IMG/VR virus record: IMGVR_UViG_3300031519_000071
Location: 1 to 38,954 of that record
Direction: 5' to 3' (one strand)
Source of the DNA: a virus
Taxonomy: Duplodnaviria > Caudoviricetes
DNA: 38,954 nucleotides
Below, piece after piece: positions 3,001-31,795 of the stretch (the stretch's first letter is position 1; every line of letters starts with the position of its first letter). A program made the position numbers and the translations under genes. The notes below the pieces were generated by a model. The model was not told where the DNA came from and did no database searches. It worked only from the letters and a program-made list of their open reading frames with translations.

Positions 3001-5525
3001 TTGACCTTGACGAAAGCGTTAAGTCAATGCTGTATTACACGCGTACTGAGAGCAAACAAGAAGCTAATCAAATACGTGATGCGTTAAATGAAGAGTTTAA
3101 TACTTATGATGCAAGCGAAACTACAATAAGGGTAGACGGTGGTAAACAAAAAGCAAATGAAGACGGTACTCTTAATCCGGACACCGTAAATAATATTGTA
3201 TTCCGTGCTGAAAGTAGCACTGCCAGTTCAACTTCTACTCTTGCTAATGGCGTAAACTATGATGATGTAGCCAACACATTATTACGCGCTGGTATTTCTT
3301 TAAAACAAAAAGACCGCGATAACCTAATAAAAATGATGACCAACCAACATTCTGTTGCACGTAAACGGATGGAGTTTAGCCAAACCCCCGGTTGGGAACA
3401 GGATATGATGCGTGGTATAGCAGAACATCTTGAGACACAAACACACATAGCAGGTAAAAACCGGTTCAAGCACCAAGTTTCTCGTGTTGTTGCAGATAAA
3501 ACTGCGGAACTTAATCTATGGGATGGTAATCTAAGAGAGCTTGAGCGAAGGCAAAATGCTTACAGAGACGCGGCTGATAAAAGCCGTAAAGGTTATAACG
3601 AAGCAAAGTCAGACCTTGCCTTTATGGATATGACATCATACCAACATTCATACATAGAGTCTTCTGATAAACGGAATATAACTATTTTAAATAGAGACCT
3701 TAGCGAAAGTAAAGTAGATGGAAAAGGTAAATCAGGACAATATAAAGAGGACGCTAATAAATTAGTAGAGTTTTACAACAACACGGCTAACATTGCTGAA
3801 GCTACTGGTGAAGAAAAATTTGGTAAGATGTTTGGTAAATTTGCCACAGTCACTGCTGCTATGCAATTAGGTGGCGCAATAGCTCCAGCCCTTATTAACT
3901 TAACTTCGTTAGGTAGTCACGCCATACCATACCTATCTACAATAAACAACAAGACCGGATATGGTGGTGGCTTTGGTCCCAGTGCAGCAGCGGCAGCTAT
4001 CTACAGAGCAGGCAGTGATATGTCTCTTATCAAAGCTGTTCTCAAGATGGACGACGTAACTGGTACTGCGGCCAAACTTGATGTGTTACTTAACGGCACT
4101 AAAGAAAATCCTAAAGTGTGGAAAGAAGGTGAGCGTGTCTACAATATGACAAGGGATGAGCTACAGTTCCTACAGTCGCTAACAGAAAAGGGTGTGCTAA
4201 CACCTAATATGTTTAACGCTCTGGTTGGTACGTCACGTACAGGTAAACAATCCAATCAACTAGCAAGAATGACTGAAACATGGATGAAGTTATTCTCTAA
4301 GACTGAACAGTATAACCGACGCGTTACGGCACTAGCTTCCTATCGTCTGGAAAAAGAACGACAGCTAAAAGCTGGGGCAAAGGAAAGTGACTTTGCTACA
4401 GGTAAAACAGATGCGGCAAAGCACGTATACGCTCGATCAATTACTGCGGTTAACGCATCCCAAGGTAACTACGCACAGTACAACCGCCCTCACCTTGCCC
4501 GTGGTAATGTTGCTCAGTACCTATATATGTATAAGCAGTTTGTGGTTATTACAGTTCAACTGATGCGTAACCTTGGTACTAGGGAACGTCTGATTATGCT
4601 TGGGCTTCTTGTTTTGATGAGTGGTGTAAAAGGTATACCATTTGCTGAAGACTTTATGGATTTGGTGGACACATTAATGCAGAAGTTTGGAATCAAATCT
4701 AAAGGGGTTGAGGCTTATGTTTCAGAAATATCGGAGGCTATGATCCCCGGTTCGTCTCGTATTTTAATGCGTGGTCTTGGAGATTACTTGCTAGGCGCAA
4801 CAGTATCTAACCGTCTAGGCCACGGTAACTTGTTGCCGGGTACTACTTTTTTCCTTGCTGGCTCTGATACTGGTAGGGAACTTGCAGATATTGCTGGTCC
4901 TATAGTATCAGCCATGCAGGGTATAGTAGGTGGTACTGCGTTAATAACAAACTATGCCGCTGAGACTGTTGGCCTAAAGCCTGATGTAACCAGCTTTGAA
5001 GATATAGCTCGTACAGGTTTAGGTTCATCTGGTCTTAAGGCTATAGCCGAGAGCTTTATATTTATGTCTGATGGTACTATTACTAATAAACGTGGGCAGG
5101 TGGTAGCTAAAGATTTTGGTCCGTTTGATATGGTAACTCGTATGTTAGGGTTCTACCCATCTGCAGCTACTACCCAGTACGATATTAACCGTATGACCCA
5201 ACGTGCTAGAGATTACAGTAGGGTTATCAAAGAAGGTTTTGTTGCACGATACCGCAAATCTGACACAGCAAAAGAGCGCCGTCTTGTTAGACAAGAAGTT
5301 AGAGAGTGGAACCGAGATGCTGGTAAGGAGTCACCATTCTATATTCGTAACTTCACAGATTCTGCAAACCGTTCCACTAAAGAAGCCGAACGTACTGCAA
5401 CAGGTCGCTTATTAAAGTCAGCACCTAAGTCAGTGCGGGCTATGCAGAAAGACCTAATGCTTGCGTATGGGTTAGATACAAAAGGCAATCTTCCTGACAA
5501 CCTTGACCGCGTTAACCAACGCTAA
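3..5525 (+). CDS. Giant virion/ejection protein of the large polyvalent (PLxRFG-like) type, 5'-truncated
   Basis: The frame is open from nt 3 (QQPADIIFEATDEW...), so the true start is outside the window; >1840 aa. Zincin-like LGHEIIGHFGL motif followed by EAVEEAVAD. The C-terminal region has YMYKQF and hydrophobic Gly-rich helices, as seen in podophage internal proteins. Confidence 0.7.
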   Translation, partial: QQPADIIFEATDEWQNFPEGAIAPGGAEFRLSLTDPTQRQIRLIPTETQPESSQPTINLNQDPDTLGGAERLELAKELMATAAGRTEEFDFEKGARILMKDVLFDPPTGNKKVWWNEMAALINEPEGLGILWDSPDHLAISREVFLDLAGEYLVSGSTLGKTFTTTKDGVAGVERDWVRIALDMGWFLDTLLVLDGTPTKPSDRINNITDSKLGPDATIEDIVAEVKELSKRSGVVAETTSELAAMVTNTRAQQGSPNIVNAFINRVSSLIADGADLSFVVEGAPLSDWFPNNTATIENGKLKRPTSAEQSTQAKLDIADTRPVEGRNSNIETGRPITQPMPTNSQRAYIRKVVKGLNKKVSPLVMNVADLAEFKKKYAKQYREAVASRPDNKNIINENTAGHSFGNTVVIFRNNIKNKQHLAFVLGHEIIGHFGLASIMPKAKLKTLMDGIYDTDPRIRAEAIRRMSVYNMNKTEAVEEAVADLAGVVESQTIMRVWNAIKTFLNKLGVKFSDDMARYYVNQSRRMLRNGTTGDVSANGIYSDLMDIQDRYVEGRSSDNLASSAFSHKILSGQVSSEGLWSTLTDIAGDMTSAEGIETNIRKLSATTSNFATNFGRFAEILQTLDQKATRNRGLQELYKIFENQSEHVKRLQTILNDKTNFSHRYDPVSRILTGTRKKVTKENENDWQNGPPPQKFERDQANKLLQEARLFRYEESSEALIREQGSLLNISPEGAVTRNEEVIKKVIDAGSVTRKQFEAGLRTLKKDDAGNIIKGDPRIYKPDFKINDRVWRLYTEQRNAINEASIMVYEDKVIGMLGSQKIEIDDIVRINKLTPEQGRILHELSATHSKLYQAKPVIKGNKFEWNPESVEAARVFIYQAMRVMDSKNGDRKLNDWINGSSDPNDAGLEAFRKDKDFPQDFSELVEKLKVLNKAQLSERRELDARRTIQDLEISNSQLINAEYKAINEMLTSYVPFVRKGKFQVRVQAYRIVGGKEVPVDLDESVKSMLYYTRTESKQEANQIRDALNEEFNTYDASETTIRVDGGKQKANEDGTLNPDTVNNIVFRAESSTASSTSTLANGVNYDDVANTLLRAGISLKQKDRDNLIKMMTNQHSVARKRMEFSQTPGWEQDMMRGIAEHLETQTHIAGKNRFKHQVSRVVADKTAELNLWDGNLRELERRQNAYRDAADKSRKGYNEAKSDLAFMDMTSYQHSYIESSDKRNITILNRDLSESKVDGKGKSGQYKEDANKLVEFYNNTANIAEATGEEKFGKMFGKFATVTAAMQLGGAIAPALINLTSLGSHAIPYLSTINNKTGYGGGFGPSAAAAAIYRAGSDMSLIKAVLKMDDVTGTAAKLDVLLNGTKENPKVWKEGERVYNMTRDELQFLQSLTEKGVLTPNMFNALVGTSRTGKQSNQLARMTETWMKLFSKTEQYNRRVTALASYRLEKERQLKAGAKESDFATGKTDAAKHVYARSITAVNASQGNYAQYNRPHLARGNVAQYLYMYKQFVVITVQLMRNLGTRERLIMLGLLVLMSGVKGIPFAEDFMDLVDTLMQKFGIKSKGVEAYVSEISEAMIPGSSRILMRGLGDYLLGATVSNRLGHGNLLPGTTFFLAGSDTGRELADIAGPIVSAMQGIVGGTALITNYAAETVGLKPDVTSFEDIARTGLGSSGLKAIAESFIFMSDGTITNKRGQVVAKDFGPFDMVTRMLGFYPSAATTQYDINRMTQRARDYSRVIKEGFVARYRKSDTAKERRLVRQEVREWNRDAGKESPFYIRNFTDSANRSTKEAERTATGRLLKSAPKSVRAMQKDLMLAYGLDTKGNLPDNLDRVNQR

Positions 5526-8434
5526 GTAATTACTCCTAGCTGGCCCAACGTCATATTCTCTGCACCTTGTTGTGCAATGTCAAGGAAGCCTACCATCTCC
5601 ATGTTGTTGAGGTTGATACCTAGCACGTAGTGCTGCCCTGCCTTAAGATTAGTATCCTTACTTATGGACACCTTCTTTGTATGCGGCGTAGCATCTGCGC
5701 CTACTTCACCAACTTCACGGCACAACGCGTTGTAGTCATACCCACGGCTAGCCACGTACTCTTTAAACTTCTTACGCACTAGCATCACTGTACCCCTGTC
5801 GAACTTATCCATTGGTCCACTACGGTACACATCAAATCGTGCTTTGATCTCACCCCGTGGCTCACGATTAATGTCGTGGGTTGCAGGGACGTTACCACTG
5901 GTTGTGTGCATGACGGTTAGGATGTCAGCGGCGGTCTCGTTTAGGTACTCTTTAATAATATCAAACCCAGTAATACGACTCTCGTCTGCCTTTGTGCGAA
6001 GCCCCTCAATCTGGTCAACAACTAACCGGATACCAATAGTAAAGTCATAGGATATAACCCCAATCTCTGTGGCTATCGTGCAGGCAACATGTTGTAGTAC
6101 GAGTGCCGCCTCCCAGAAGCGCTCAACACCGGCAAACCTAAATCCATATAGGTCTGCGAACTTAAGGGTAGCCTCAGCAATACGCCTCTTCAACTCAGTC
6201 TTACCTAGACGAAGGTACTCTTTCATCAACAGGTCGCCAATGACCCCGTGGTTATCTGATAGGAACTCGGAGAACTTGCGGCCTGCGTCACTAGTTCCTC
6301 TAAATAGTTTATGGGTTGGCATCTCTATCTCTAGTAGTCGTGCCATCTGTGCGCTAGTTTCTATACCTGATGCCGCCATCTTGGAAGCAAAAGATATGTT
6401 GGTGGATACCGTGACACTTGTTGCCCACTCTTTAGCATCCCGCTCACTAGCAGTGCGTGTAAGCCGTGCCTTATCCCTGCCTTGTGTAACCCAATAACAG
6501 AAGGAGCCAACGTCCTCCATCATGGTAGCCTCGTCTATAGTCATAGGCAAATTACAATATGTACCCAGCCTATTGAACAACGCATTGTGCGTGAACTTAG
6601 CTGCAAAGTGTAGCTTGTCTGGGTTACCCCATACGCTCTGCATAAACAACTGAGCAATAGATTTACCGCTACCCGAAGGTCCGAACAGTGAGACGGTCAC
6701 ACCCTTGAGACCAGTGAATGCCCACAGTGGCGCAGCTAAAGAGTTATTAAGTGCAAAGATATGGTGCGGTAGGTTGGCTGTCTGCAACACGTTGGTGGCG
6801 TTCGTCCATGTATCCGCAGAGCCAGCCATGCTGTACATCTTGCTACCCATATTAGAAGCAGCGGAGGATAGAGATATATCTTCTACGGTTACGGCACCAT
6901 CATCACCCCGTTTATACAGACGTTCACCAATAACAAATTGGCTGAAGTTATCTTTCCACCCCATGACCCCGTGGATGTTAGACATTGATTGTGTCTTGCG
7001 TAGTTCGTCCATGTATCCGCGTAACATGTATTGGAATCCTTGTGTCTGCTTCTCAGTCTTAAGAACTATCCCCTGATCTGCAATAACAGTGGGGAACTCT
7101 CGGCTCTTAGAGTTGAGATGTGCTTGCCTAAATACTAAGTCTTGCCACCCTTCATGTGGCCTCTTCCATTTAAATCGTACAGTCTCATACCCTAAGCTAT
7201 CGTCACGACCATAGCCTACCGGGTATATAAGGAAAGGAGAAATCTCCACCTCTGTGCCGTCTATTGATTGTACTATAATATCACCAGATACCTTGAACGG
7301 TTTAGGGGGACTGATCTTGTGGGCGATATCATCAGGGGCATCTGCCGCCATCTTAGTTTCTTTGTACACCCTACCGCACATAGCCGGGGAGGTAATGTTT
7401 CCCTTCAATGGACATTTGTCACAGCCCTTTGGTTTGTCATCCTCAAACTTGTTGCAGGTGGTTGGGCCTGTTGTACGCGCTTGCCACTGGCGTAGCTTGT
7501 TAAGTGTATCGGTCTCAGTGTAGTCGGGGTGGTCCATACTCCAGTTTTTAGCTGTGTCCTCGGGGTTCTGGCAGTGCGCGGCGATCCCGATCAGGCTATA
7601 CCACATAGGCTCTGGTACTTTGTCTTGGTTGTCCACTGCCCATCGTACTTGCTGGCAACTGTTATATATAGTGTCGGGGTTTGACGGCTCAAAATCTTGC
7701 TTGATCTCTAATGCTGCGCTCAGTGCGGAGGTGGGCAGCACCATACTCGGTACGTTTATGCCCGAATCTGTCACTAGCGTAGGGGTTGCACTCCCCAAGA
7801 TGTTCTGGAGTGTCTGCTTGTCGTAGTCCGGGGCATCCCGTAGGAGTTTAACTTCCTTACCATTCTTGGGATTGTGAGTGCCGATAGGGCGCAACACCCT
7901 TGCGCTGTCTGCTGTAACCGCAGGGTCAAACAGAAACTTATTCACTTTAAACGTAGCCTTTAACGCATTGGCTAAAGGTTGCCACTCGTTCTTAGGTAGA
8001 GCTTCACTCAACACCCAGTACACATGAAGCCCCCGCCCAGATGATACGATCATAGGCCACGGTAGCTTAGTGACGTTGATAAAATCTAGTAGAGCTTGTA
8101 GACCTAGAGCTTGGCTAAGGTAACCCTTGTCTGGTATCGGATCGCCATTCTTATCGATTTGATCTACCTTATCAGGGCCACAATCAATATCAATAAACAA
8201 AGTCTTGACTAGCTTAGAGTTTACTTGTGTTCGATTAAAGCGGGTGTTGAATGTTGATGTTGCATAATATGTGTTGTTGCCAGCTTGGTCATAGCGGCGG
8301 CAGTTAGTTGCGAGTTCCTCCACGGAACCAAAGAACGCTTGCTGTGGGGCAGAGTTATCATTTATTACAGTCGCACAGTAGAATCCTTCGGCGGGGAGGA
8401 CACGCTTAAGAAATCCTAGCGTATCCATTGACAT
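5522..8434 (-). CDS. DNA primase-helicase: N-terminal AEP-type primase, Cys-rich region, DUF927/P-loop helicase
   Basis: AEP motifs FIDIDCG, SSGRGLHVYW and VLRPIGTHN; Cys cluster TTCNKF...CDKCPL; Walker A GPSGSGKS and Walker B MTIDE; AGGGA upstream of the ATG at 8434. Confidence 0.85.
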   Translation of the reverse strand: MSMDTLGFLKRVLPAEGFYCATVINDNSAPQQAFFGSVEELATNCRRYDQAGNNTYYATSTFNTRFNRTQVNSKLVKTLFIDIDCGPDKVDQIDKNGDPIPDKGYLSQALGLQALLDFINVTKLPWPMIVSSGRGLHVYWVLSEALPKNEWQPLANALKATFKVNKFLFDPAVTADSARVLRPIGTHNPKNGKEVKLLRDAPDYDKQTLQNILGSATPTLVTDSGINVPSMVLPTSALSAALEIKQDFEPSNPDTIYNSCQQVRWAVDNQDKVPEPMWYSLIGIAAHCQNPEDTAKNWSMDHPDYTETDTLNKLRQWQARTTGPTTCNKFEDDKPKGCDKCPLKGNITSPAMCGRVYKETKMAADAPDDIAHKISPPKPFKVSGDIIVQSIDGTEVEISPFLIYPVGYGRDDSLGYETVRFKWKRPHEGWQDLVFRQAHLNSKSREFPTVIADQGIVLKTEKQTQGFQYMLRGYMDELRKTQSMSNIHGVMGWKDNFSQFVIGERLYKRGDDGAVTVEDISLSSAASNMGSKMYSMAGSADTWTNATNVLQTANLPHHIFALNNSLAAPLWAFTGLKGVTVSLFGPSGSGKSIAQLFMQSVWGNPDKLHFAAKFTHNALFNRLGTYCNLPMTIDEATMMEDVGSFCYWVTQGRDKARLTRTASERDAKEWATSVTVSTNISFASKMAASGIETSAQMARLLEIEMPTHKLFRGTSDAGRKFSEFLSDNHGVIGDLLMKEYLRLGKTELKRRIAEATLKFADLYGFRFAGVERFWEAALVLQHVACTIATEIGVISYDFTIGIRLVVDQIEGLRTKADESRITGFDIIKEYLNETAADILTVMHTTSGNVPATHDINREPRGEIKARFDVYRSGPMDKFDRGTVMLVRKKFKEYVASRGYDYNALCREVGEVGADATPHTKKVSISKDTNLKAGQHYVLGINLNNMEMVGFLDIAQQGAENMTLGQLGVIT

Positions 8435-8486: not shown

Positions 8487-8792
8487 TTACTCTTCTTCTT
8501 TTGTTAACTCAAGTAACGTATTGAAACGTTGCGCTGGAGCCATAGCAATTACCTCTGGCGCAGGCCACGGGTTGGCATCATCGGCTACCAGTACGAACAG
8601 TTTCTTAAGTGCTGCGCGTACCATGAGATTGTTTCCCTTACGGATAGGCTTACCTTTAATCCAGCCTCCATATGTCACCCGAGACACCCCAAGAAATTTA
8701 GACATCTGAGATGCATTTAGTAGCATATGTTTCCGAAGAGCCTCAACACCACTGAAGTCAATGGGCTTTGCTTCCTCTGTATTAGGCATCAT
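8487..8792 (-). CDS. XRE/Cro-like helix-turn-helix protein
   Basis: VEALRKHMLLNASQMSKFLGVSRVTYGGWIKG fits the HTH_XRE pattern. Confidence 0.75.
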   Translation of the reverse strand: MMPNTEEAKPIDFSGVEALRKHMLLNASQMSKFLGVSRVTYGGWIKGKPIRKGNNLMVRAALKKLFVLVADDANPWPAPEVIAMAPAQRFNTLLELTKEEE

Positions 8793-9813
8793 CTGCCTCC
8801 ACTTGGGCCATCAGTGCAGTGATCTCATCGGCAAGGCCAGCAGTGCCAGCGTCAGCGACAGGTGCAGCAACAGGCTCTTCTGCAACAGCAACAGGTTCCA
8901 CAGCAGCAGGTGCAGGTGCAGGTGCAGGTGCAGGTGCAGGTGCAGGTGCAGGTGCAGGTGCAGGTGCAGGTGCAGCAGGCTTACCAAATGTTGCTACAGG
9001 TGCAGGTGCGTCATCGGTAGGTGCAGGCTGTGCAACAGGTTCTACTACAGGCGTCGGTACAGCTACCGGTGCTGCAACAGAAGGCACAGGGGTAGTTGCG
9101 ATGGCAATCGAAGGAGCGTCCTCACCTGTAATCTCTTTAGCCAATGGGCTACCAAGTAGCGTATCTACTATAGCCTGAGTGGCGTCATCTAGTACCCCGC
9201 CGTAGTCAAACTTTAACTTAGGGTAGGATGCTTCCGTGTCGAAGGAGATGATAGTCTTAGCGATGTCGGGAATAATACCATGCATCCGCAGCTTACGGTG
9301 GTATGCGTTAAGACCTTTCAGCGCACCCGCCGTTACTTCTAGTAGATACATCGGACCCTCTGGATCATCTACAGCTACAATAGCCAATCTCTTTTTATCA
9401 GCACATGCCTTGATGTCCACGCCTTGAGGAGTCTTCTTACTACCCCATGCGTTCTGGGGACAGGATGAACATAGGTCGTTCTGTGGTTGCTTACTATCCG
9501 CATCGGGACGGACACCGCCTAGGCTAGCACAGTCAGGTGCGGAGGCTTCTGCATCAGGGTTCCATGCTTCAGCGTAGAAAGACTTAGACAGATTAGAGTT
9601 AGACCAGACGATGGACACAGCAAGTTGTACGTCAGGAAGCACAGTCTCTGCGCCGCCATCTACGATACGGAACCGTGATCCTTTGATGGAGATACGAGGG
9701 AAGCTAGGGCCACCGCCTAGTCCACCAGCAATGTGGTCTGATAACACAGACGTACGGGATGACAGGTGTGCGGGTAGTGGGGTGTCGAACGGTACAATAT
9801 TATTACTCATCAT
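8782..9813 (-). CDS. Putative ssDNA-binding/replication accessory protein with Ala-Pro linker and acidic tail
   Basis: FPRISIKG motif, CSSC...C possible Zn site, long A/P/V-rich linker, acidic C-terminus (EADDA); located in the replication module. Confidence 0.55.
   Translation of the reverse strand: MMSNNIVPFDTPLPAHLSSRTSVLSDHIAGGLGGGPSFPRISIKGSRFRIVDGGAETVLPDVQLAVSIVWSNSNLSKSFYAEAWNPDAEASAPDCASLGGVRPDADSKQPQNDLCSSCPQNAWGSKKTPQGVDIKACADKKRLAIVAVDDPEGPMYLLEVTAGALKGLNAYHRKLRMHGIIPDIAKTIISFDTEASYPKLKFDYGGVLDDATQAIVDTLLGSPLAKEITGEDAPSIAIATTPVPSVAAPVAVPTPVVEPVAQPAPTDDAPAPVATFGKPAAPAPAPAPAPAPAPAPAPAPAPAAVEPVAVAEEPVAAPVADAGTAGLADEITALMAQVEADDA
8906..8971. repeat. Perfect hexamer tandem repeat (GCAGGT)11, encoding (Ala-Pro)11 on the minus strand
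   Basis: 11 identical copies counted directly. Confidence 0.95.
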
Positions 9814-13167: not shown

Positions 13168-15365
13168 TTACATTCTCCGTAGTTATCACCAATGGCAGAC
13201 TCGCAAGCCACTGGTAGTGTTGTTGCCCACGCTGGTGGGGTACTCATTATCTTCTCTACAACTTGTTGTGCTGTTTGTGCTTCACCGGACGACACGTTGA
13301 CTATGATCTCATCATGCACTTGGAAGACAACATGGTAGTGCTGGCCGACAGCAGTCATCTGATCTGTAATAACAATACGTGCCAGTGCTTGGATAATATT
13401 CTCAGTAACTTTACCACCATATATATTAGTCCACGCTATATCACTATGTTCTTTGCTTATAAACTTACGGAACGTACGTGCGTCAGCTATATATTCAAAC
13501 CTATTATCTCTTGCACGTAGCGCAGTATAGCGTAGCACCATTGTATTAGGGAGAACTATTCCGTCAGGGCTATAGCCTATAAAGTTACCAACCACACCAG
13601 ACTGACCGCTAACCATATCCTTTAACAGTGTGTCGCACCGCGTCCACAATGCTTTAATCATGGGGTATGTGTCTCGGTATAGGTAAACTATACGCTTAGC
13701 TTCTTCCTCACCTATGTCATTGTTGGTCTGTAACTTGATAGTGTCACGGAATTTTACATGGCCCATGCCATAGCCTAACCCTAGTATACAAGTCTTACCA
13801 ACGAACCGTTGCTCTTTAGTAATCTCCGACTCGGCTATGTTGTACACACGGGCAGCGAATTGTTTGTACACATCTTCACCACGGTTGAACGCCTCGACTA
13901 GATCATGCTGTCCTGCAACATGTGCCAGCATACGTGCCTCTATCTGGCTTGAGTCGCAAGCGATTAGCTTATGTCCTTCAGGAGAACATATTGCAGTACG
14001 TATGACGTTGTTCCCGCGAGCAGGCAGGTTCTGTAGGTTTAGTTTGTCGCCTCCGCTGAACCGCCCAGTGTGTGCGCCGTAGTACTTAAGCATGATAGGC
14101 AGAGGCCCACGCTTAGATACCTCGATTAATCGTTGCGTCCTTGTCTCCTCTATGGTAGACTTGGTGCCAAGTCTAACGTCTACAACAGCCCTAATCGAGG
14201 GGCTGCTATGATTAAGTAAGTCCTTCATCCCTTGGTCGGTCTTAGCAAATGCAAATGTTTCTTTGCCAGTAGTAAGACTGGTCTTCATAGGTACGTCAGC
14301 ACCTAGGGCAGCTAGCAGTGCAGCGAACTGTATATTACTGTTAAGTGCTTTCTTTGCAGCCTCTGGGTCACCACCCCCCAACTTGTTGAGGAGTGTTAGC
14401 TTACGATCTTGCTCCGCCTTGAGGTGGGCTTCTAACTTGAACCGATCTAACTCAATCACAGACTCGGTATACATACGTATGGTCTGGTCAATGACCATGA
14501 GTTCGCTGACAGGAAAACCTTTCCTTAGTTCCTTGAACAACTTGTACGTTAGTTCCGTATCGTTAATACAGTAGTCACCATACTGGGTTAGATCAGTGGG
14601 CGTGAAGTCCTTGCGCCTCTTACCTAGTGCATCAACAACCTCAGTCCCTTTCTCACCTAGGCCAAAGTCAAGCACTAAGTTCTTTAAGCTCCCACCTACT
14701 GTGACACTGTGCGTAGGCTTAGCCATCGACATGGTATCGAACCAGAACTTGGGCTTGATACCGAAGTGTTCTGATAGGATAAGCCCATCAAACGCTGTGT
14801 TGTGGCAGAGAATAGCCTTGTTGCTGTAGTCCAACGAGTTGAGGAACGTACGTGTACCCTCCATTGTACCGCTGAACCAATCAGTAGGGCCATCATTAAC
14901 CTTGATTGACACACCAATCACCTCAAACTTATCATGCCTGACGTACTCTTCAGTGGTCATCTTACCAAGGCCATAGTCCTTAGAGTAATAGGTCTCAAAG
15001 TCTAGCGTTACTATATCCATCGGCTTTGGTTGCTCCTGTTTGTATAAGTTGCTGCGCCATTGCGTTACCAGCGGCATATGATTGTGCGTTTCTTTAGGGA
15101 TCGTCTTGCCTATCTTGGTCATCCAGCCTATGCGGGACACCGCATTGGGGCCAGACACCCAGACATTAGGGTGCAGACTAGAGGGGCGGCGTAGCCCCTG
15201 ATCTTCACATGCTTTACGGAACTCATCACCGTTAACCACGGGCTTGGATAGCAGAAGTTGTTCTACAACAAGGAGGTACCCCGCGACGAACCTAGGCTCT
15301 GTCGCTTTCGCTTTACCCCAGCACTTATCAGCCAGAGCCATAGCGTTCTTCATCCTTGCGCTCAT
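13164..15365 (-). CDS. polA: Family A DNA polymerase with 3'-5' exonuclease and ~115-aa N-terminal extra domain (core starts at ATG 15020)
   Basis: Exo motifs DFETY, HNTAFD, YCIND; Pol motifs CDSSQIEAR, RFVGKTCILGLGYG, VHDE. Start uncertain (GTG 15377 or ATG 15365); internal AGGAG plus ATG at 15020. Confidence 0.92.
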   Translation of the reverse strand: MSARMKNAMALADKCWGKAKATEPRFVAGYLLVVEQLLLSKPVVNGDEFRKACEDQGLRRPSSLHPNVWVSGPNAVSRIGWMTKIGKTIPKETHNHMPLVTQWRSNLYKQEQPKPMDIVTLDFETYYSKDYGLGKMTTEEYVRHDKFEVIGVSIKVNDGPTDWFSGTMEGTRTFLNSLDYSNKAILCHNTAFDGLILSEHFGIKPKFWFDTMSMAKPTHSVTVGGSLKNLVLDFGLGEKGTEVVDALGKRRKDFTPTDLTQYGDYCINDTELTYKLFKELRKGFPVSELMVIDQTIRMYTESVIELDRFKLEAHLKAEQDRKLTLLNKLGGGDPEAAKKALNSNIQFAALLAALGADVPMKTSLTTGKETFAFAKTDQGMKDLLNHSSPSIRAVVDVRLGTKSTIEETRTQRLIEVSKRGPLPIMLKYYGAHTGRFSGGDKLNLQNLPARGNNVIRTAICSPEGHKLIACDSSQIEARMLAHVAGQHDLVEAFNRGEDVYKQFAARVYNIAESEITKEQRFVGKTCILGLGYGMGHVKFRDTIKLQTNNDIGEEEAKRIVYLYRDTYPMIKALWTRCDTLLKDMVSGQSGVVGNFIGYSPDGIVLPNTMVLRYTALRARDNRFEYIADARTFRKFISKEHSDIAWTNIYGGKVTENIIQALARIVITDQMTAVGQHYHVVFQVHDEIIVNVSSGEAQTAQQVVEKIMSTPPAWATTLPVACESAIGDNYGECK

Positions 15366-15366
15366 G

Positions 15367-15717
15367 CTATCCGGCACGATCATCCTCCCCAATGTTGCGT
15401 CCTTCATAGGCGATCAGGAACATGATACAGCATGCGGCATGCCATAGGTGGGGTCGGGAACTCTCAGCGTCAAACTTCTCACCACGCCACCAAGCCCACA
15501 TATGACGCATCAATGCACCGAAGGGGCGTGACCAGTGCATGCCCTCCTCCCAATTACGTGCGCCATATTTCTCTGCGCCGAACTTAAGTATGGTAGCTGT
15601 ACCCTCAAGGAACTCAGGGGCTAGCAGTTCGTACGGTATTTTATCTTGGTCAAACTTAACAGCTTGTCCTTCTGCGGCTTCTTTCCTAGATGGTATACGT
15701 ACTCTCTTCTCTGACAT
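15367..15717 (-). CDS. dATP/dGTP diphosphohydrolase (DUF5664 family)
   Basis: KFDQDK..YELL...FGAEKYGARNW..G..WSR...ALMRH..AW..GE..D.ES..PHL.HA.CC signature; TAGGAG RBS. Confidence 0.85.
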   Translation of the reverse strand: MSEKRVRIPSRKEAAEGQAVKFDQDKIPYELLAPEFLEGTATILKFGAEKYGARNWEEGMHWSRPFGALMRHMWAWWRGEKFDAESSRPHLWHAACCIMFLIAYEGRNIGEDDRAG

Positions 15718-16840: not shown

Positions 16841-17035
16841 CTAATCTGTTACCTCATCTTCTATATCTAATAAGTCTTCATCATAATACCTGTTACAGTT
16901 ATTGCGCTTACCTAACACAACAAGTTCTCCGTACATATTACGCTCCTCGTTACGTCCGTGATGTTCTCTACGTTTCTCACGCTCAGATGAGTTTGCAAAA
17001 TATATACTACGTAATATTCCTGATATGTATGTCAT
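16841..17035 (-). CDS. Hypothetical protein (64 aa)
   Basis: Gap-filling ORF in the operon direction; start uncertain. Confidence 0.45.
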   Translation of the reverse strand: MTYISGILRSIYFANSSEREKRREHHGRNEERNMYGELVVLGKRNNCNRYYDEDLLDIEDEVTD

Positions 17036-17892: not shown

Positions 17893-18552
17893 CTATCTGG
17901 TAAGTTTGGCTAGTGTGGAAGCGGCAGTCATTGCGGCTAGATCAATCTCCTCAACAGAAAGAGACTTAGCTTTACGTTCTACAATTTGTTTGTGTCGTTC
18001 TTGTTTATCTTGTGGAACTAAGTCCCATAATGGAGGCCATGCTTTTAAAGCAGGGGCTAAAGTAGTGTATGTATCCATGATTTTATTAACACCACTAACG
18101 AAAGCTGATCTTTCATCTTCGAGCCTACGTATGGCATCACAGTACTTCTTGTACTCCGCTCTGAATGTATCCCATCGAGTATCAGAAGGGTCAAGAGTCC
18201 ATCCATTATAGGTACGAGACTCACCCATTAGCCCGTGTAGTTCTGCTTCTATCTCATTAGGAATAGGTGCAGAGTTAGTTAGTTTCATCCTAACAGTATA
18301 GTTATCGTTGGCAGACCACACCCCCTCCTGACTGTCAAATCCTCTTATGTCTATGTCATTACTGCGACGAAAGTAACTTTTTGGTAGCGATTGCATAGCA
18401 GTCTTATGGTCTCTAAACGCCACATCATAGACTGTCTGCCCCCAAGTATCAGGGTGGTTCTTCTGTGCTTCCTCCATCCTATCACTGAACAAACGCTTTG
18501 CGTTGTTAATGATATCACTTCTAAGTTCACCACTAAATCTAACTGTAGCCAT
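17893..18552 (-). CDS. Nmad5-like (nucleotide-modification-associated domain 5) protein
   Basis: CTAGGAGT RBS; N-terminal VRFSGELRSDII and C-terminal TTLAPALKAWPPLWDLVP resemble the Nmad5 T..L...WP....LP pattern. Confidence 0.5.
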   Translation of the reverse strand: MATVRFSGELRSDIINNAKRLFSDRMEEAQKNHPDTWGQTVYDVAFRDHKTAMQSLPKSYFRRSNDIDIRGFDSQEGVWSANDNYTVRMKLTNSAPIPNEIEAELHGLMGESRTYNGWTLDPSDTRWDTFRAEYKKYCDAIRRLEDERSAFVSGVNKIMDTYTTLAPALKAWPPLWDLVPQDKQERHKQIVERKAKSLSVEEIDLAAMTAASTLAKLTR

Positions 18553-18557
18553 ATTAT

Positions 18558-18755
18558 TTAACTCCTAGTTTGTGTTACGTGGACATCCCCATTGGAGTCC
18601 ATGCTTACTTTCATTGAACTGTTAGCCAACCCCATGATGGTATCGGCAAACCTATCCAATGCCTTACGTTGTTTGTGTATGACAACTTGTTGCACTACGA
18701 TAAACACTATCGCTAGCACCAACGCAATCCCTGCGATCTCATATGTGTACATCAC
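18558..18755 (-). CDS. Small protein with N-terminal transmembrane helix
   Basis: IAGIALVLAIVFIVV hydrophobic stretch; overlaps the upstream stop. Confidence 0.7.
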   Translation of the reverse strand: MMYTYEIAGIALVLAIVFIVVQQVVIHKQRKALDRFADTIMGLANSSMKVSMDSNGDVHVTQTRS

Positions 18756-20983: not shown

Positions 20984-21175
20984 TTAAAATGGTAAGCCTA
21001 GCCGTACTTTAGCTAGGCACGTTGCAACAAGTTCTGGGTCACGTATTATTATTGTCTCAATGAACTTGTCACGGGAATACCTATCAAGGGGTAGAGCATC
21101 GCCATATGATAACTGTTGCTTGATGGCATAATACAACTGCCCCTTGGTATCCTCATCCAGATTAGAATAACACAT
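20984..21175 (-). CDS. Hypothetical protein (~63 aa)
   Basis: Gap-filling ORF; the ATG at 21175 overlaps the ATPase 3' end. Confidence 0.55.
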   Translation of the reverse strand: MCYSNLDEDTKGQLYYAIKQQLSYGDALPLDRYSRDKFIETIIIRDPELVATCLAKVRLGLPF

Positions 21176-22145
21176 CGGTATTAGCCACAGCCCATGCAGT
21201 AAACGCTTGGGTTGATGCCAACTCAGGGTTACGCCTTGTCGCATAGCTTACTGTCAGTACACCAAACTCCTGTGGCATCTGGTTGGCAACTTGTATCACT
21301 CTGTCAAAGTTAGTAGTGGTAGCCTTGTGAGCAATAGCACCGCTGATAGCATACAAAGTAGCTGGGTCAGTAGGCACTTCGAACTTGTCAGGGTGCATCA
21401 ATAGATTGTCGATGTTAGGTAACGCCCTCTCGATCTTACGGAACCCAACAAACTCAGCCGATGCACCTTCACCAACAGCACCCTTGAAGCAATCATACTC
21501 AGCCTCTGGCTGTACGATATCCAGTACTGCTGAAACACCCTTGACCCATGATCTAGGGGTAGGATTCTTAGGTCTCTGTGGATCAAAGTCGTGTAACAAG
21601 TTGGGACGGAACCTCACAAAACTAATCACCGAAGGGTGTACATCCTCAGTGATAGCCCATCTAGTCCAGTCATCCAGCATGGTATCAAACTCAAGCTCAG
21701 TCTCACGATCAGCAAGGTGGCTCAGTGTACGATTAGCACCAGCCCTGTCCTCAACCCTGTTACCAGTGGATACAATCATCACACCTTCGGGTAATGGGTG
21801 ACCATGTAACTCACGCTCCTCTTGGATGTTAGCTATTACCTTTTGTATATCGCCACCACTCTGACCACGATCATCAAAGCACAGTATAGCCTCAGTCTCA
21901 GGATCAGAAGGCCACCAATGGGGCATCTTGTAAGTAAAGTTATCATCACCAGCCGCCATGTCAGGCACACCGAAGTCCTCGACCAGCATAGATGGTGCAT
22001 GATGGTGTATATAATCTACACCTAGCTGTTGTGCGGCTTGCTTTACTACAGAGGTCTTACCACCTCCGGGTTTACCTGTGATGTAAATAGGACGCTTGAT
22101 GTCCCACAGATCAATGATAGTCTGCTTGATTATTTCTGCTCTCAT
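21162..22145 (-). CDS. MoxR-like AAA+ ATPase
   Basis: Walker A GKPGGGKT, Walker B LCFDD, sensor STGN, LADR arginine finger, PTPRSW; GGAGGT RBS. Confidence 0.88.
   Translation of the reverse strand: MRAEIIKQTIIDLWDIKRPIYITGKPGGGKTSVVKQAAQQLGVDYIHHHAPSMLVEDFGVPDMAAGDDNFTYKMPHWWPSDPETEAILCFDDRGQSGGDIQKVIANIQEERELHGHPLPEGVMIVSTGNRVEDRAGANRTLSHLADRETELEFDTMLDDWTRWAITEDVHPSVISFVRFRPNLLHDFDPQRPKNPTPRSWVKGVSAVLDIVQPEAEYDCFKGAVGEGASAEFVGFRKIERALPNIDNLLMHPDKFEVPTDPATLYAISGAIAHKATTTNFDRVIQVANQMPQEFGVLTVSYATRRNPELASTQAFTAWAVANTDVLF
22129..22145 (-). repeat. 17-nt direct repeat, copy 1 (ATGAGAGCAGAAATAAT, the MoxR gene start)
   Basis: Identical to 22631-22647. Confidence 0.9.
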
Positions 22146-22315
22146 ACTTCTACCTCCGCTTTAAAAACTGTAGTTTCCACTTCAACAAGTTGGTCTGCTA
22201 ACTCTCCCAATGTCACAAATTCACCTTCATCATCGTATAAACAAACGAATCGGTGATTGTACAATTCAAAAAAAACTTGCTGTAATTTTTCTTGGGCAAT
22301 TGTTTGTATGCTCAT
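22142..22315 (-). CDS. Small acidic protein (57 aa, MSIQTIAQEKLQQVFFELY...), not in the ORF track
   Basis: TAGGAG RBS; ATGA overlap with the MoxR start. Confidence 0.75.
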   Translation of the reverse strand: MSIQTIAQEKLQQVFFELYNHRFVCLYDDEGEFVTLGELADQLVEVETTVFKAEVEV

Positions 22316-22331
22316 CGTGTGTAGTCTCCTA
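22311..22331 (-). repeat. 21-nt direct repeat, copy 1 (TAGGAGACTACACACGATGAG: RBS plus start)
   Basis: Identical to 22643-22663. Confidence 0.9.
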
Positions 22332-22345
22332 GGTTTAAGGAACCT

Positions 22346-22419
22346 GCCTCATCAGTACAGTGCGGTTAGTCACTGTAGACTGGGACACCACCCCAGTTTC
22401 GGCTTTGTAGCTGTAACCA
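22346..22419 (-). ncRNA. Type II hammerhead ribozyme
   Basis: Minus strand GCC-GAAA-CTGGGG-TGGTG-TCCCA-GTC^-TACAGTG-ACTAACCG-CACTGTA-CTGATGA-GGC: all core residues, stems I and III closed, stem II open; upstream TGGTTA (22414-22419) can pair with loop I. Confidence 0.92.
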
Positions 22420-22423
22420 GCAG

Positions 22424-22618
22424 CTAGGAGATAACGTCTAAGATAAATCCGTTGTCGCTTGTATACTTAGCGTCATACTTAGCAACTAGCTGTTGTTCTA
22501 TGGCATGTTGTGCAGCTTTTACTGATGCCGCATCTAGTATTACAAAATCACCTTGCTTACCATGCTTAGCGATTTCTTTATCACACCATGCATTAAATAT
22601 CTCCACTTCAGTACTCAT
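22424..22618 (-). CDS. Hypothetical early protein (64 aa)
   Basis: GGAG RBS; TAATG overlap. Confidence 0.7.
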   Translation of the reverse strand: MSTEVEIFNAWCDKEIAKHGKQGDFVILDAASVKAAQHAIEQQLVAKYDAKYTSDNGFILDVIS

Positions 22619-22920
22619 TATTCAGTCTCCATTATTTCTGCTCTCATCGTGTGTAGTCTCCTAATCATACTGTACTCATCCATCACTGAGATGGCGGCAT
22701 CGGGGTCATCCCACAATATTGTGGTATCAAGAACATGTTTCACAGTGCTACGGGGTAGCTCAAACTCAGTAGCATAAGCACTGATTACATCACGGCGACG
22801 GATGTAAAGGTACTCACGGCAACGAGCCTCGGCTTTACCCCCCTTCATAGGGAGCCAAGTTAGGGTTTTAGTGGTTGCTTCAAGAGCAGCGACAGCTTCG
22901 TATACTTTACGTAAGCTCAT
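22618..22920 (-). CDS. Hypothetical early protein (100 aa)
   Basis: Abuts neighbours; its C-terminus (MRAEI...) is read through the duplicated MoxR start. Confidence 0.65.
   Translation of the reverse strand: MSLRKVYEAVAALEATTKTLTWLPMKGGKAEARCREYLYIRRRDVISAYATEFELPRSTVKHVLDTTILWDDPDAAISVMDEYSMIRRLHTMRAEIMETE
22631..22663 (-). repeat. Composite copy 2 of the 21-nt and 17-nt repeats
   Basis: TAGGAGACTACACACG-ATGAG-AGCAGAAATAAT. Confidence 0.9.
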
Positions 22921-22921
22921 C

Positions 22922-23266: not shown

Positions 23267-23295
23267 ACTATCGTCGATTCGCCAAAAATTGTCAA
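23267..23295 (-). promoter_or_regulatory. Sigma70-type early promoter
   Basis: TTGACA-17 nt-GATAGT, preceded by CCGAC. Confidence 0.65.
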
Positions 23296-23837
23296 GTCGG
23301 GGGTACTTTACCTACTTACTTAACATTGCACTATCTAGATACATGTATAAAATATATAAGTTAGTACTTTATGGGGGTTAAAAAAATATACCTTGTAAGC
23401 CATAGTAACAGCGGGTTGTAGAACAACTTTACATTCAACTATATAGATTATATAAGCTGGGAAACTAATCACTCCCACATTTTCATGCTTACTAACTTAC
23501 GCCAAATGTATAAAGTTATGAATTTAGTAAAAAAGGTGCGTGGTATACAACATTTAGTTAGATAATCTATATAATGTAGATAGTTAAACTTAGTATTATG
23601 GTCTGTAACGTATGGTATACAACAAACTATACAATTAAAACGTAAAGTTTATAGCTCCTGATATTAGGCTAATCTATATAGCAACTTATATAGCTGGGGT
23701 ATGTATTACCTGTAAGTCATTGATATCATTACATACTACTTGTATAAAGCCAGCACCTATATAAGCTAGCACCTATATACATATGCTTATATACACGCCG
23801 TGCTATGACCTCCCGATATATGGGCTTTATTAATAAT
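23296..23837. other. AT-rich non-coding region, candidate replication origin/control region
   Basis: No ORF >=60 aa; repeats TGGTATACAACA (23541, 23613) and AGCACCTATATA (23752, 23768); IHF-consensus match at 23713-23725. Confidence 0.5.
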
Positions 23838-23990: not shown

Positions 23991-24006
23991 ATTTAGTCTC
24001 CTAAGT

Positions 24007-24028
24007 GAGGGGAGCCGTAGCTCCCCTC
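24007..24028 (-). promoter_or_regulatory. Perfect 9-bp hairpin with cUACGg (UNCG) loop between two early genes
   Basis: GAGGGGAGC-TACG-GCTCCCCTC; no U-tract; immediately before the next RBS. Confidence 0.65.
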
Positions 24029-24036
24029 GGGTTAGA

Positions 24037-24916: not shown

Positions 24917-25384
24917 ATGGATAATCTACCGTTGAAATATCATCCGTGGTCTGACCGGCTTGCAATGGACATCGCACTTGCTCTTGAAGGGTCAGGTGAA
25001 TCCATGCCAGATATTATGTTGCGTCATGCGATAACCCAAAGCGAACTCATTACTTACAACCAAGATAGTATGTTCCTTAAGAAGGTGGAGCATCTTCGTG
25101 AGGAAGTTAAAGAGAAGGGCATGACCTTCCGGCTCAAGGCAAAGGCGCAGGCAGAAGAACTACTTACAACAAGTTGGACATTGATCCATGCACCAGATGT
25201 AAGCGCGGCGGTAAAGGCTGATCTTATAAAGTCTACGGTTAAGTGGGGGAACCTAGAACCACAGAAAGACGCGATAGCTGAGGGCACAGGGGGTGGTGGT
25301 GTTACCATACAGATTAACCTCCCCTCCCAAGAATCAGCAGTAACTACTTTGGTACCTGTTGCCAAAGTTATTGAGCATGGTTGA
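24917..25384 (+). CDS. terS: Terminase small subunit (putative)
   Basis: Upstream of terL; helical protein with C-terminal GGGVTIQINL; start revised from TTG 24881 (the -35 box) to ATG 24917. Confidence 0.7.
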   Translation: MDNLPLKYHPWSDRLAMDIALALEGSGESMPDIMLRHAITQSELITYNQDSMFLKKVEHLREEVKEKGMTFRLKAKAQAEELLTTSWTLIHAPDVSAAVKADLIKSTVKWGNLEPQKDAIAEGTGGGGVTIQINLPSQESAVTTLVPVAKVIEHG

Positions 25385-30874: not shown

Positions 30875-31795
30875 ATGGCATACGCAACATCACCGGGTCA
30901 TCCGGCTTACACCGGGAATTTCATTCCAGAAATCTGGAGCGGAAAACTCATTGAAAACTTTTACGACGCTACTGTGTTGTCGGCTATCGCCAACACTGAC
31001 TACGAGGGTGATATTAAATCTCATGGTGACACGGTTAATATCCGTACGACCCCTGAGCTGACGATCCGTGACTATGTCAAGGGTCAGACTCTCGCCGTCG
31101 AAAACCCTGATAAGCCTAAGCTGCAGCTTCTTATCGACAAAGGTAAGTACTTTGCCTGTGTTGAAGATGATGTAGATCAGGTTCAGTCCGACATCGCTAT
31201 GATGGACACTTGGTCTAAGGACGCTTCTGAGCGTATGAAGATCACCATTGATACTGATGTTCTTGGCAACATTGCTACTGATGTCCCTGCCGCTAACAAG
31301 GGTCTCACCGCTGGTGAGCAGTCTCTTGCTATTGACTTGGGTGTTACAGGCACTGCTAACGCTTTGACAACATCGAATGTTCTAACTGAAATCATTAACC
31401 ACGGTACGGTTCTTGATGAAGCAAACGTTCCTGAGTCAGATCGTTGGATGGTTATCCCTGCTAAAATGGCTGGGTTAATTAAACAGTCTGACCTAAAAGA
31501 CGCTTCTATTACTGGCGACGGTTCTACCCCGCTACGTAATGGCCGCCTTGGTATGATTGATCGCTTCATGATTTATGTGTCGCACAACCTGCCTCTATCC
31601 CAAACTGGAGCCAGTGGTGAGTTCACCATCTTCTCCGGACATAAGAAGGGACTGACCTTCGCTTCGCAGATGACCAACATGGAAACTCTGCGTTCCGAAA
31701 CTACCTTCGGGGATATCATCCGTGGTCTGCAAGTGTATGGTTTTAAGGTTGTTAAGCCTGAAGCTATCACTGCTGGCATCATCACAATCGCATAA
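30875..31795 (+). CDS. Major capsid protein (P22-coat-like, HK97 fold)
   Basis: FIPEIWSGKL...NTDYEGDI...GDTVNI, LDEANVP..DRW, RGLQVYG.KV..PEA. Confidence 0.9.
   Translation: MAYATSPGHPAYTGNFIPEIWSGKLIENFYDATVLSAIANTDYEGDIKSHGDTVNIRTTPELTIRDYVKGQTLAVENPDKPKLQLLIDKGKYFACVEDDVDQVQSDIAMMDTWSKDASERMKITIDTDVLGNIATDVPAANKGLTAGEQSLAIDLGVTGTANALTTSNVLTEIINHGTVLDEANVPESDRWMVIPAKMAGLIKQSDLKDASITGDGSTPLRNGRLGMIDRFMIYVSHNLPLSQTGASGEFTIFSGHKKGLTFASQMTNMETLRSETTFGDIIRGLQVYGFKVVKPEAITAGIITIA

What the first reader, a model, noticed from the sequence alone, without database searches (positions are those of the whole stretch)
22129..22663. Nested direct repeats of an RBS and the MoxR start bracket the ribozyme and two small genes: a possible gene-cassette system
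Seen: 22663-22631 (minus) is TAGGAGACTACACACG-ATGAGAGCAGAAATAAT. Its first 21 nt recur exactly at 22331-22311 (RBS and start of the 57-aa ORF). Its last 17 nt recur exactly at 22145-22129 (start of MoxR, MRAEI). Recombination between the 21-mers would delete 332 bp (64-aa ORF plus hammerhead). Recombination between the 17-mers would delete 502 bp and put this RBS directly on MoxR. Inference: small genes were inserted in series at the MoxR translation start, duplicating the initiation region each time. With a self-cleaving RNA inside the duplicated unit, an RNA-linked or microhomology-driven gene capture/excision mechanism is possible. No recombinase or reverse transcriptase is visible in the window.
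Basis: partly seen in the sequence, partly recalled or inferred. Interest (0 to 1): 0.8.

Follow-up and report, generated by a model that had tools for sequence, protein, structure and literature searches.

The report
Recombination scars in phage early operon
Related phages show that the 'nested repeats' are one 33-base copy of a gene's start signal plus the original, which is split by a small optional gene; they are likely scars of ordinary recombination in a variable gene cluster around a known kind of RNA predicted to cut its own message, not a new gene-capture system.

Summary
The repeats are real and exact, but they are one repeat, not two. Relative L091 carries the 33-mer (RBS plus first codons of the AAA/MoxR-like gene) once and intact. 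In the window a 170-bp optional gene splits that original and shares only ATGAG with it. The upstream 33-mer is an in-frame insert in an 89-aa gene (P0121). The indels seen in relatives and runs are 170 and 304 bp, plus the 33-nt insert inferred from P0121; the predicted 332/502-bp deletions were not seen in contigs of 8 runs (contigs drop rare variants). The type II hammerhead is kept in all six close alleles, and RBS repeats do not track hammerheads (3 of 14 vs 4 of 19 clades). No reverse transcriptase or tyrosine integrase in 5 near-complete relatives. Best reading: a hyperplastic early operon whose genes swap by recombination at start signals. The scan has noted hammerhead-punctuated swappable early operons on other DNA.

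The parts
23267..23295 (-). sigma-70-like promoter candidate heading the operon (TTGACA-17-GATAGT)
   Evidence: 10 of 12 matches; 3 sites found vs 6.3 in shuffles, so the scan alone is no evidence; TTGACA kept at this place in L001, L087, L088, L091, L092
22922..23215 (-). 97-aa gene, fixed first gene of the operon
   Evidence: homologs upstream of the ATPase gene in close and distant loci; no Pfam/PHROG match
22618..22921 (-). 304-bp optional segment (slot 1): 100-aa ORF = 89-aa gene family plus the 33-nt insert; slot empty in L001, L090, L091; holds a 78-aa gene in L092 and an 81-aa gene in L087
   Evidence: joint 22617->22922 'skips 304' in X9 and X4; homologs of 82-89 aa
22631..22663 (-). 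33-nt in-frame copy of the intact RBS plus ATPase start (-16 to +17 around ATG)
   Evidence: 33/33 identical to the intact junction in L091, 32, 31 and 30/33 in L092, L090, L001; P0121 lacks exactly 11 residues here
22618..22647 (-). possible 9-codon leader MRAEIMETE created by the copied RBS and ATG; holds a second SD (GGAGACT 22630-22624) and ends in a TAATG overlap with the 64-aa gene
   Evidence: sequence; translation not shown
22424..22618 (-). small ORF before the ribozyme (64 aa here; 38, 39 or 51 aa with other N-termini in L001, L092, L090); 3' end conserved
22424..22431 (-). TCTCCTAG, predicted to pair with the downstream SD (22332-22325); seen only in the close clade
   Evidence: 6 of 6 close alleles, 1 of 18 non-redundant hammerheads, no covariation; fold z -1.44
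22338..22404 (-). type II hammerhead ribozyme; predicted cut after GUC at 22378; pseudoknot AACC 22367-22364 with GGTT 22344-22341
   Evidence: RF02276 40.2 bits; compensatory change in stem I in L001; pseudoknot test
22311..22331 (-). original RBS and ATGAG: left half of the split 33-mer, and a likely crossover point
   Evidence: window differs from L091 at 1 of 197 columns left of it and at 88 of 960 in the ATPase gene; from L087 at 18 of 197 and 21 of 960
22141..22310 (-). 170-bp optional segment (slot 2): 57-aa gene with its own SD for the ATPase (GGAGG 22157-22153) and an ATGA overlap; 5-nt ATGAG shared by both ends
   Evidence: absent in L001, L089, L090, L091, L092, present in L087; joint 22140->22311 'skips 170' in X9 and X10
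22129..22145 (-). first 17 nt of the ATPase gene: right half of the split 33-mer
21162..22145 (-). 327-aa AAA (MoxR-like) ATPase gene
   Evidence: PF00004, phrog_1297; 1492 homologs
18550..18569 (-). second variable site: single RBS-start in the window and L091; duplicated around a 46-aa gene in L090 and around a different 50-aa gene in G006
   Evidence: 15 nt exact in L090; 11 nt exact within a 16-nt stretch with one mismatch in G006
23997..24033 (-). 37-nt hairpin-plus-SD element, single here, exact direct repeat around a 56-aa gene (225 bp) in L001/G006

Best explanation
The repeats are one 33-base copy of a gene-start signal plus its original, which is split by an optional 170-bp gene, and they are likely scars of recombination guided by short similarities between start signals in a variable early operon, around a hammerhead RNA that stays in place and is predicted to cut the message. 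Steps: (1, shown) relatives have the order promoter - 97-aa gene - slot 1 - small ORF - hammerhead - RBS - slot 2 - ATPase, and the slots are filled or empty independently. (2, shown) the 57-aa gene sits between the RBS-ATGAG and the rest of the ATPase start, bringing its own SD, so the old 33 nt now read as a 21-mer and a 17-mer overlapping by 5. (3, inferred from protein P0121) 33 nt of the intact junction were copied in frame into the end of an 89-aa gene, likely by template switching or by tandem duplication and partial deletion, helped by the shared GGAGACT and a near match at the other end. (4, inferred) because the copy matches the unsplit junction, it likely predates the 57-aa gene in this lineage or came from a co-infecting phage; the window looks like a recombinant with a crossover at the RBS. 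(5, inferred) junctions survive when reading frame and stop/start coupling are kept, which is why breakpoints cluster at gene starts. (6, predicted) the hammerhead cuts 62 nt before the next start codon and gives the downstream message a fixed hairpin end whichever gene follows.
For: L091 equals the window minus 304 and 170 bp with 12 mismatches in 686 aligned bases and holds the 33-mer once, 33/33. P0121 is the same gene at 89 aa, ending DEYSMMETE; two homologs are 88 aa. Four slot combinations occur: L087 has the 57-aa gene without the 33-mer copy; L091 neither; X4 both forms of slot 1; X10 both forms of slot 2. Longest exact word shared by the two flanks of 9 cargo cases: 37, 15, 11, and 4-7 nt in the other six cases, so there is no uniform site. 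Similar short copies lie near the same junction in relatives: 23 nt in L087, 20 nt in L088/L090, and 20 nt at a gene start in L096. Hammerhead upstream of the ATPase in 23 of 113 distinct loci, 0 on the antisense strand; 24 of 26 have an SD and start codon 42-70 nt after the cut. Pseudoknot of 4 bp or more in 17 of 21 vs 5.7 with shuffled partners. No association of hammerhead and RBS repeat. PF00078 and PF00589 in 0 of 5 near-complete relatives.
Against: The DNA of the 89-aa allele was not seen; step 3 rests on one protein record from one 1013-bp contig. The homology at the left junction is offset by 2 nt, so a simple template switch would give 31, not 33 nt. No annealing recombinase was identified in the window, which is about 71% complete. 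At 18.57 kb two different genes are flanked by the same duplicated RBS-start, and at 24.0 kb a 37-nt repeat flanks a gene: this is more orderly than random illegitimate recombination predicts. Direction (gain or loss) is not fixed for the 304-bp slot, since distant homologs sit in the same slot in L099. Cleavage and expression are untested.
Confidence: 0.72

Rival explanations
1. The lineage has a dedicated way of inserting genes at translation starts that duplicates the RBS-start (small circles integrating by homology at the start signal, as for PeSL cassettes); the 33-mer is a remnant of such an event.
For: Empty site plus two different cargo genes with a duplicated RBS-start at 18.57 kb; 37-nt hairpin-SD repeat around a 56-aa gene in L001 with a single copy in the window, L090 and L092; crossover inferred at the RBS; SD-containing repeats in 7 of 33 clades.
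Against: At the site in question flank duplications are 5 and 3 nt; six other cargo cases share 4-7 nt; repeats differ in sequence between sites; 2 of 5 near-complete relatives have no direct repeat of 16 nt or more within 3 kb spacing; no tyrosine integrase in 0 of 5.
Confidence: 0.12
2. The self-cleaving RNA takes part in capture or excision (RNA intermediate, reverse transcription, or ribozyme-bounded unit).
For: The copied 33 nt lie on the predicted 3' cleavage product; the hammerhead lies between two variable slots; L121, L150 and L081 carry two or more hammerheads.
Against: The copy starts 46 nt after the cut, not at it; the hammerhead is single-copy and present in 6 of 6 close alleles; no RT in the window or in 5 relatives; no co-occurrence with repeats; repeat-flanked cargo at 18.57 and 24.0 kb has no hammerhead (one match in the window).
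Confidence: 0.03
3. Whatever made it, the 33-nt insert was kept because it works as a translation booster: copied SD and ATG start a 9-codon leader that contains a second SD and ends in TAATG on the 64-aa gene; ribosomes reaching that gene's stop would also open the predicted anti-SD helix. Compatible with the best explanation.
For: The layout has the three elements that 10.1101/2023.02.09.527918 lists for bicistronic designs (passages); the insert keeps the frame; the 100-aa form is recorded on 5 contigs vs 1 for the 89-aa form.
Against: Frame retention is expected from survival alone; the upstream gene already ended in the same SD and TAATG; contig counts may reflect resampling of one population; the anti-SD helix is limited to one clade with no covariation, fold z -1.44.
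Confidence: 0.2
4. The repeats are an assembly artefact.
For: The longest spanning contigs (X1, X5, X6) and L002/L086 may come from the source population.
Against: X4 record 10 bridges both junctions with 0 differences; the 100-aa protein is held by three sources on 5 contigs; the junctions lack the long shared words that a graph chimera needs.
Confidence: 0.02

Closest known systems
Type II hammerhead ribozymes in phage and prophage operons (Rfam RF02276; Perreault et al. 2011, PMC3088659, passages read)
   Same: Same permutation, core, and loop I / 3' tail pseudoknot; sits between small genes whose identity varies; proposed to process long transcripts.
   Different: Single copy here, directly 5' of the RBS for the ATPase or the gene inserted before it; a clade-limited anti-SD helix is predicted.
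Mosaic junctions at gene boundaries and repeat-flanked insertions in phage genomes (Pope et al. 2011, PMC3029335, passages read: LRRHood 29-bp repeats with a single copy in relatives; Island3 gene 68)
   Same: Whole-gene indels with breakpoints at gene ends; some cargo flanked by short direct repeats with a single copy at the empty site; direction ambiguous.
   Different: The finding's repeat does not flank the cargo that actually moves; it is a 33-nt copy placed inside a neighbouring gene.
PeSL regulatory cassettes of T4-type phages RB49/phi1 (Arbiol et al. 2010, PMC2839356, passages read)
   Same: Regulatory sequence ending in SD and start codon serves as a recombination linker in hyperplastic regions; the 24.0-kb and 18.57-kb sites behave this way.
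   Different: PeSLs are about 100 bp, carry promoter and terminator, recur many times and form circles; here linkers are 15-37 nt, differ between sites, and no circle was seen.
Synthetic bicistronic design (BCD) elements (10.1101/2023.02.09.527918, passages read)
   Same: SD1, short leader, SD2 inside the leader, TAATG stop/start overlap.
   Different: Natural, arisen from a copied start signal, embedded in frame in an upstream gene; function untested.

Membership tests
Type II hammerhead ribozyme (RF02276) | Core CUGANGA, GAAA and NUH triplet joined by three stems, stem II open | tested here: met
   40.2 bits over gathering 37; GTC, CTGATGA
Type II hammerhead ribozyme (RF02276) | Pseudoknot between loop I and the 3' tail of stem II | tested here: met
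   4 bp in the window; 17 of 21 hammerheads with 4 bp or more vs 5.7 with shuffled partners, 0 of 5000 shuffles reach the mean (related sequences not independent)
Type II hammerhead ribozyme (RF02276) | Self-cleavage | not testable with these tools
   needs a cleavage assay or RNA end mapping
Site-specific gene-cassette system (integron-like; features recalled) | Dedicated recombinase | tested here: not met
   none in 46 window proteins; PF00589 in 0 of 5 relatives 97-100% complete. Serine recombinases not searched in relatives; window about 71% complete
Site-specific gene-cassette system (integron-like; features recalled) | One conserved recombination site at every cassette boundary | tested here: not met
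   flank words of 37, 15, 11 and 4-7 nt, of different sequence
Site-specific gene-cassette system (integron-like; features recalled) | Empty site equals loss of the unit between the repeats (332 or 502 bp) | tested here: not met
   empty alleles lack 170 and 304 bp instead
Site-specific gene-cassette system (integron-like; features recalled) | Excised circles | tested here: inconclusive
   no such joint in 8 runs, but all are contigs, which drop rare forms
PeSL-type linker cassettes (PMC2839356) | Repeated ~100-bp element with promoter, stem-loop and SD | tested here: not met
   33 nt, no promoter or hairpin, two copies
PeSL-type linker cassettes (PMC2839356) | Cargo flanked by two copies, single copy at the empty site | tested here: inconclusive
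   not met at 22129-22663; met at 24.0 kb (L001) and 18.57 kb (L090, G006)
Ribozyme-bearing retroelement (features recalled) | Reverse transcriptase in the element or genome | tested here: not met
   none in the window; PF00078 in 0 of 5 relatives; host enzymes not testable
Ribozyme-bearing retroelement (features recalled) | Ribozyme inside the repeated unit, unit boundary at the cleavage site | tested here: not met
   one hammerhead in the window; repeat starts 46 nt after the cut
Bicistronic design layout (synthetic) | SD1, short leader, SD2 inside the leader, stop/start overlap | tested here: met
   against the definition
Bicistronic design layout (synthetic) | Leader is translated and drives the next gene | not testable with these tools
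   needs reporters or ribosome profiling

The most novel reading that the evidence does not exclude
This marine phage lineage has an integrase-free process that targets translation starts: it copies 15-35 nt SD-ATG windows and uses them to slot new small genes into early operons ready-coupled for translation. The 33-nt copy spans -16 to +17 around the start codon, about the size of an initiating ribosome's footprint (recalled), so the template could even be a protected mRNA fragment. The 18.57-kb site with two different cargo genes and the 24.0-kb repeat would be its complete products, and the 33-mer an abortive one.
Probability: 0.1. Interest if true: 0.75.

Novelty: new member of a known kind. 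Interest (0 to 1): 0.3.

Why it matters
As it stands it is a well-resolved natural example of how phage early operons gain and lose small genes at start signals around a fixed ribozyme, with empty, filled and recombinant alleles all on record. It offers a compact test system for two open points: what phage hammerheads do for the downstream message (still called unproven in PMC3088659 and PMC6765202, passages read), and whether start signals are true recombination targets or only the junctions that survive. It is not a new cassette system.

Tried and rejected
No RNA holder listed for the stretch; no evidence on expression either way. 332/502-bp joints and a 33-bp joint were not seen in contigs of 8 of 21 listed runs; contigs show presence, not absence. 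Recombination at the repeats would give in-frame fusions of 148 or 418 aa (offset 91 codons); none appeared among 3 hits for the 100-aa gene, the best 120 of 1492 ATPase hits or 18 listed of 28 cluster members; the search for longer proteins was not run. A kissing loop between the upstream hairpin and loop I was considered and dropped for the standard pseudoknot, which covaries. The anti-SD helix is not family-wide (mean 4.06 bp vs 4.06 shuffled), and folding did not show that cutting frees the SD: a local hairpin still covers part of it in 3 of 4 products. A 19-nt imperfect inverted match between 22661-22679 and the hammerhead was set aside as chance (95 such pairs in 9 kb). Single-sequence folding of the 343-aa protein 8782-9813 as a candidate annealing protein failed (pLDDT 39); Atlas gave unnamed viral clusters and one PF23977 lead at 17% of members. 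Viral-contig scans for the 19-nt RBS motif, the 100-aa and the 57-aa proteins found only one contig, identical to the window. The genome scan gave one MAG contig and no usable host. L090 and L154 were not held as records. Paper searches (0 papers) listed nothing on copied start signals in phages; the library lacks most subscription journals. No supplements were read.

Full report
Setting. The window is a 38,954-bp virus record, about 71% complete, with terminase, SU10-like portal, capsid, family A DNA polymerase, SNF2 helicase and PD-(D/E)XK nuclease genes. Runs that hold the stretch are brine, seawater, ice and marine metagenomes. The closest annotated phage ATPases are under 30% identical. 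The finding lies at the head of a leftward operon of small unknown genes that leads into an AAA (MoxR-like) ATPase and a DUF2201 vWA gene.

Observation. The 33-mer, the 21-nt and the 17-nt matches are exact and exceed chance (4 repeats of 17 nt or more vs 0.04 in 100 shuffles). The hammerhead passes Rfam's threshold. Contigs from X5 and X6 span the region without differences but may be the source; X4 record 10 bridges both ends of the 33-mer. The upstream copy lies in frame in the end of the 100-aa ORF, which reads ...DEYSMIRRLHTMRAEIMETE.

What relatives show. Scans with an ATPase alignment returned the best 80 of 428 viral and 80 of 415 metagenome loci. Six distinct alleles with 93-100% ATPase identity share the order promoter, 97-aa gene, slot 1, small ORF, hammerhead, RBS, slot 2, ATPase. 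L091 is the window minus two blocks of 304 and 170 bp, with 12 mismatches in 686 bases, and carries the 33-mer once and intact (33/33; 32, 31 and 30/33 in L092, L090, L001). So the 21-mer and 17-mer are the two halves of one original, split by the 170-bp 57-aa gene, which shares only ATGAG with its target and brings its own SD. L087 has this gene with no second RBS copy. Slot 1 is empty (L001, L090, L091), or holds a 78-aa (L092), 81-aa (L087) or 89/100-aa gene. Run contigs agree: 'skips 170' in X9 and X10, 'skips 304' in X9 and X4, a 473-bp skip in X10, and no 332, 502 or 33-bp joint in 8 runs. These are contigs, so rare forms would be missed.

The 33-mer. P0121 is the same gene at 89 aa, lacking exactly IRRLHTMRAEI; two more homologs are 88 aa and distant ones 82-87 aa. 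The 33 nt are therefore most simply an insert copied from the intact RBS-ATPase junction about 330 bp away. Recipient and donor share GGAGACT and ATGAG around their SD-start regions; the left match is offset by 2 nt and the right is imperfect. Template switching and tandem duplication followed by partial deletion both need two new joints and cannot be told apart. I did not see the DNA of the 89-aa allele; it rests on one record. Similar short copies occur in relatives: a 23-nt duplication with an SD at the end of the slot-1 gene in L087, a 20-nt piece of the 97-aa gene inside the small ORF of L088/L090, and a 20-nt duplicated gene start in L096. The window is a mosaic: L091-like left of the RBS (1 of 197 differences vs 18 for L087) and L087-like in the ATPase (21 of 960 vs 88 for L091), which places a crossover at or next to the RBS.

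The hammerhead. A descriptor found it within 1.5 kb upstream of the ATPase in 23 of 113 distinct loci (18 of 85 with 1 kb or more upstream), never antisense; 24 of 26 have an SD and start codon 42-70 nt after the cut. A model built from 21 of these gave 31 hits in 100 sources searched (of about 180 held), training sequences included, adding L010, L014, L098 and L076. The loop I / tail pseudoknot covaries. It is kept in all six close alleles while genes on both sides change. Collapsed to 33 ATPase clades at 85% identity (loci with over 1 kb upstream), SD-containing repeats of 15 nt or more occur in 3 of 14 clades with and 4 of 19 without a hammerhead (p=1.0; L076's hammerhead lies outside the 1.5 kb and it was counted as without). 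An 8-bp helix between the small ORF's stop region and the downstream SD is predicted in the close clade only.

Enzymes. No integrase, RT or annealing recombinase was matched among 46 window proteins (9 of them also). Five relatives that are 97-100% complete, one with a hammerhead, lack PF00078 and PF00589. The 343-aa protein remains unassigned.

Comparing the window with G006, L090 and L091 shows further whole-gene indels at gene starts. At 18.57 kb the window and L091 have one RBS-start; L090 has a 46-aa gene and G006 a different 50-aa gene, each between two copies of it. At 24.0 kb L001 has a 56-aa gene between exact 37-nt hairpin-SD repeats, single in the window. These meet the 'empty site, same repeat' test, without a hammerhead. 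But six other cargo cases share only 4-7 nt at their flanks, the repeats differ from site to site, the window's 18.57-kb site can be read as a deletion product, and 2 of 5 near-complete relatives have no nearby repeat of 16 nt or more. I read this as start signals acting as opportunistic linkers, with a 10-12% chance of a dedicated process.

Side effect of the insert. The copied SD and ATG define a 9-codon leader with a second SD inside and a TAATG overlap on the next gene, the layout of synthetic bicistronic designs. Whether it is translated or selected is unknown.

Comparison with print. Hammerheads flanking variable genes in phage operons, with the pseudoknot and a proposed processing role: PMC3088659 (passages) and PMC6765202 (passages). 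Repeat-flanked insertions and gene-boundary exchanges: PMC3029335 (passages). Regulatory linkers that drive shuffling: PMC2839356 (passages). Relaxed recombination by phage recombinases: PMC3945230 (search listing only). Integron and retroelement features and the ribosome footprint size are recalled. Searches listed no paper on copied start signals in phages. No supplements were read; the hammerhead alignments in the supplement of PMC3088659 might already hold relatives of this RNA.

Verdict. Real feature, ordinary explanation most likely: new member of a known kind, interest 0.3.

Noticed in passing
window 18550-18569 (-); L090 7340-7515; L183 5090-5350: Empty site in the window and L091; two different small genes (46 aa, 50 aa) flanked by a duplicated RBS-start whose TAA also ends the cargo gene. 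The best case in this phage for start-targeted insertion.
   Followed up: partly
window 23997-24033 (-); L001 about 2459-2720: 37-nt hairpin-plus-SD element, identical in the window and L001 although the neighbouring genes differ; repeated around a 56-aa gene in L001.
   Followed up: partly
window 15021-15407 (-): About 360 bp present in the window but not in G006, in frame with and ahead of the DNA polymerase's conserved start, giving an apparent N-terminal extension of about 120 aa.
   Followed up: no
window 16852-17023 (-): G006 lacks 170 bp from inside the 64-aa ORF 16841-17035, leaving a short remnant.
   Followed up: no
window 6800-6817 and 7003-7020; 24937-24953 and 31713-31729: Further exact repeats of 18 nt (203 apart, inside the DUF927 primase-like gene) and 17 nt (6776 apart); unexplained.
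   Followed up: no
window 8906-8975: Perfect 6-nt tandem array (GCAGGT)n inside the 343-aa gene.
   Followed up: no
L121 661-729 and 1621-1693; L081 1682-1753, 2082-2160, 3217-3295; L150 2320-2399, 3415-3484: Relatives with two or three hammerheads upstream of the ATPase; in L121 both are followed by the same 19-nt RBS-start.
   Followed up: partly
L008 3232-3303; L095 1940-2016: Hammerheads with one extra U between CUGAUGA and stem II.
   Followed up: no
L059 about 2340-3050: Four consecutive small genes end in the same ARAA..GEKE tail, giving 33-36 nt repeats that contain the next gene's SD and ATGA overlap; no hammerhead.
   Followed up: no
window 23340-23700: AT-rich non-coding stretch with short inverted repeats between the two leftward operons; possible replication origin, untested.
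   Followed up: no
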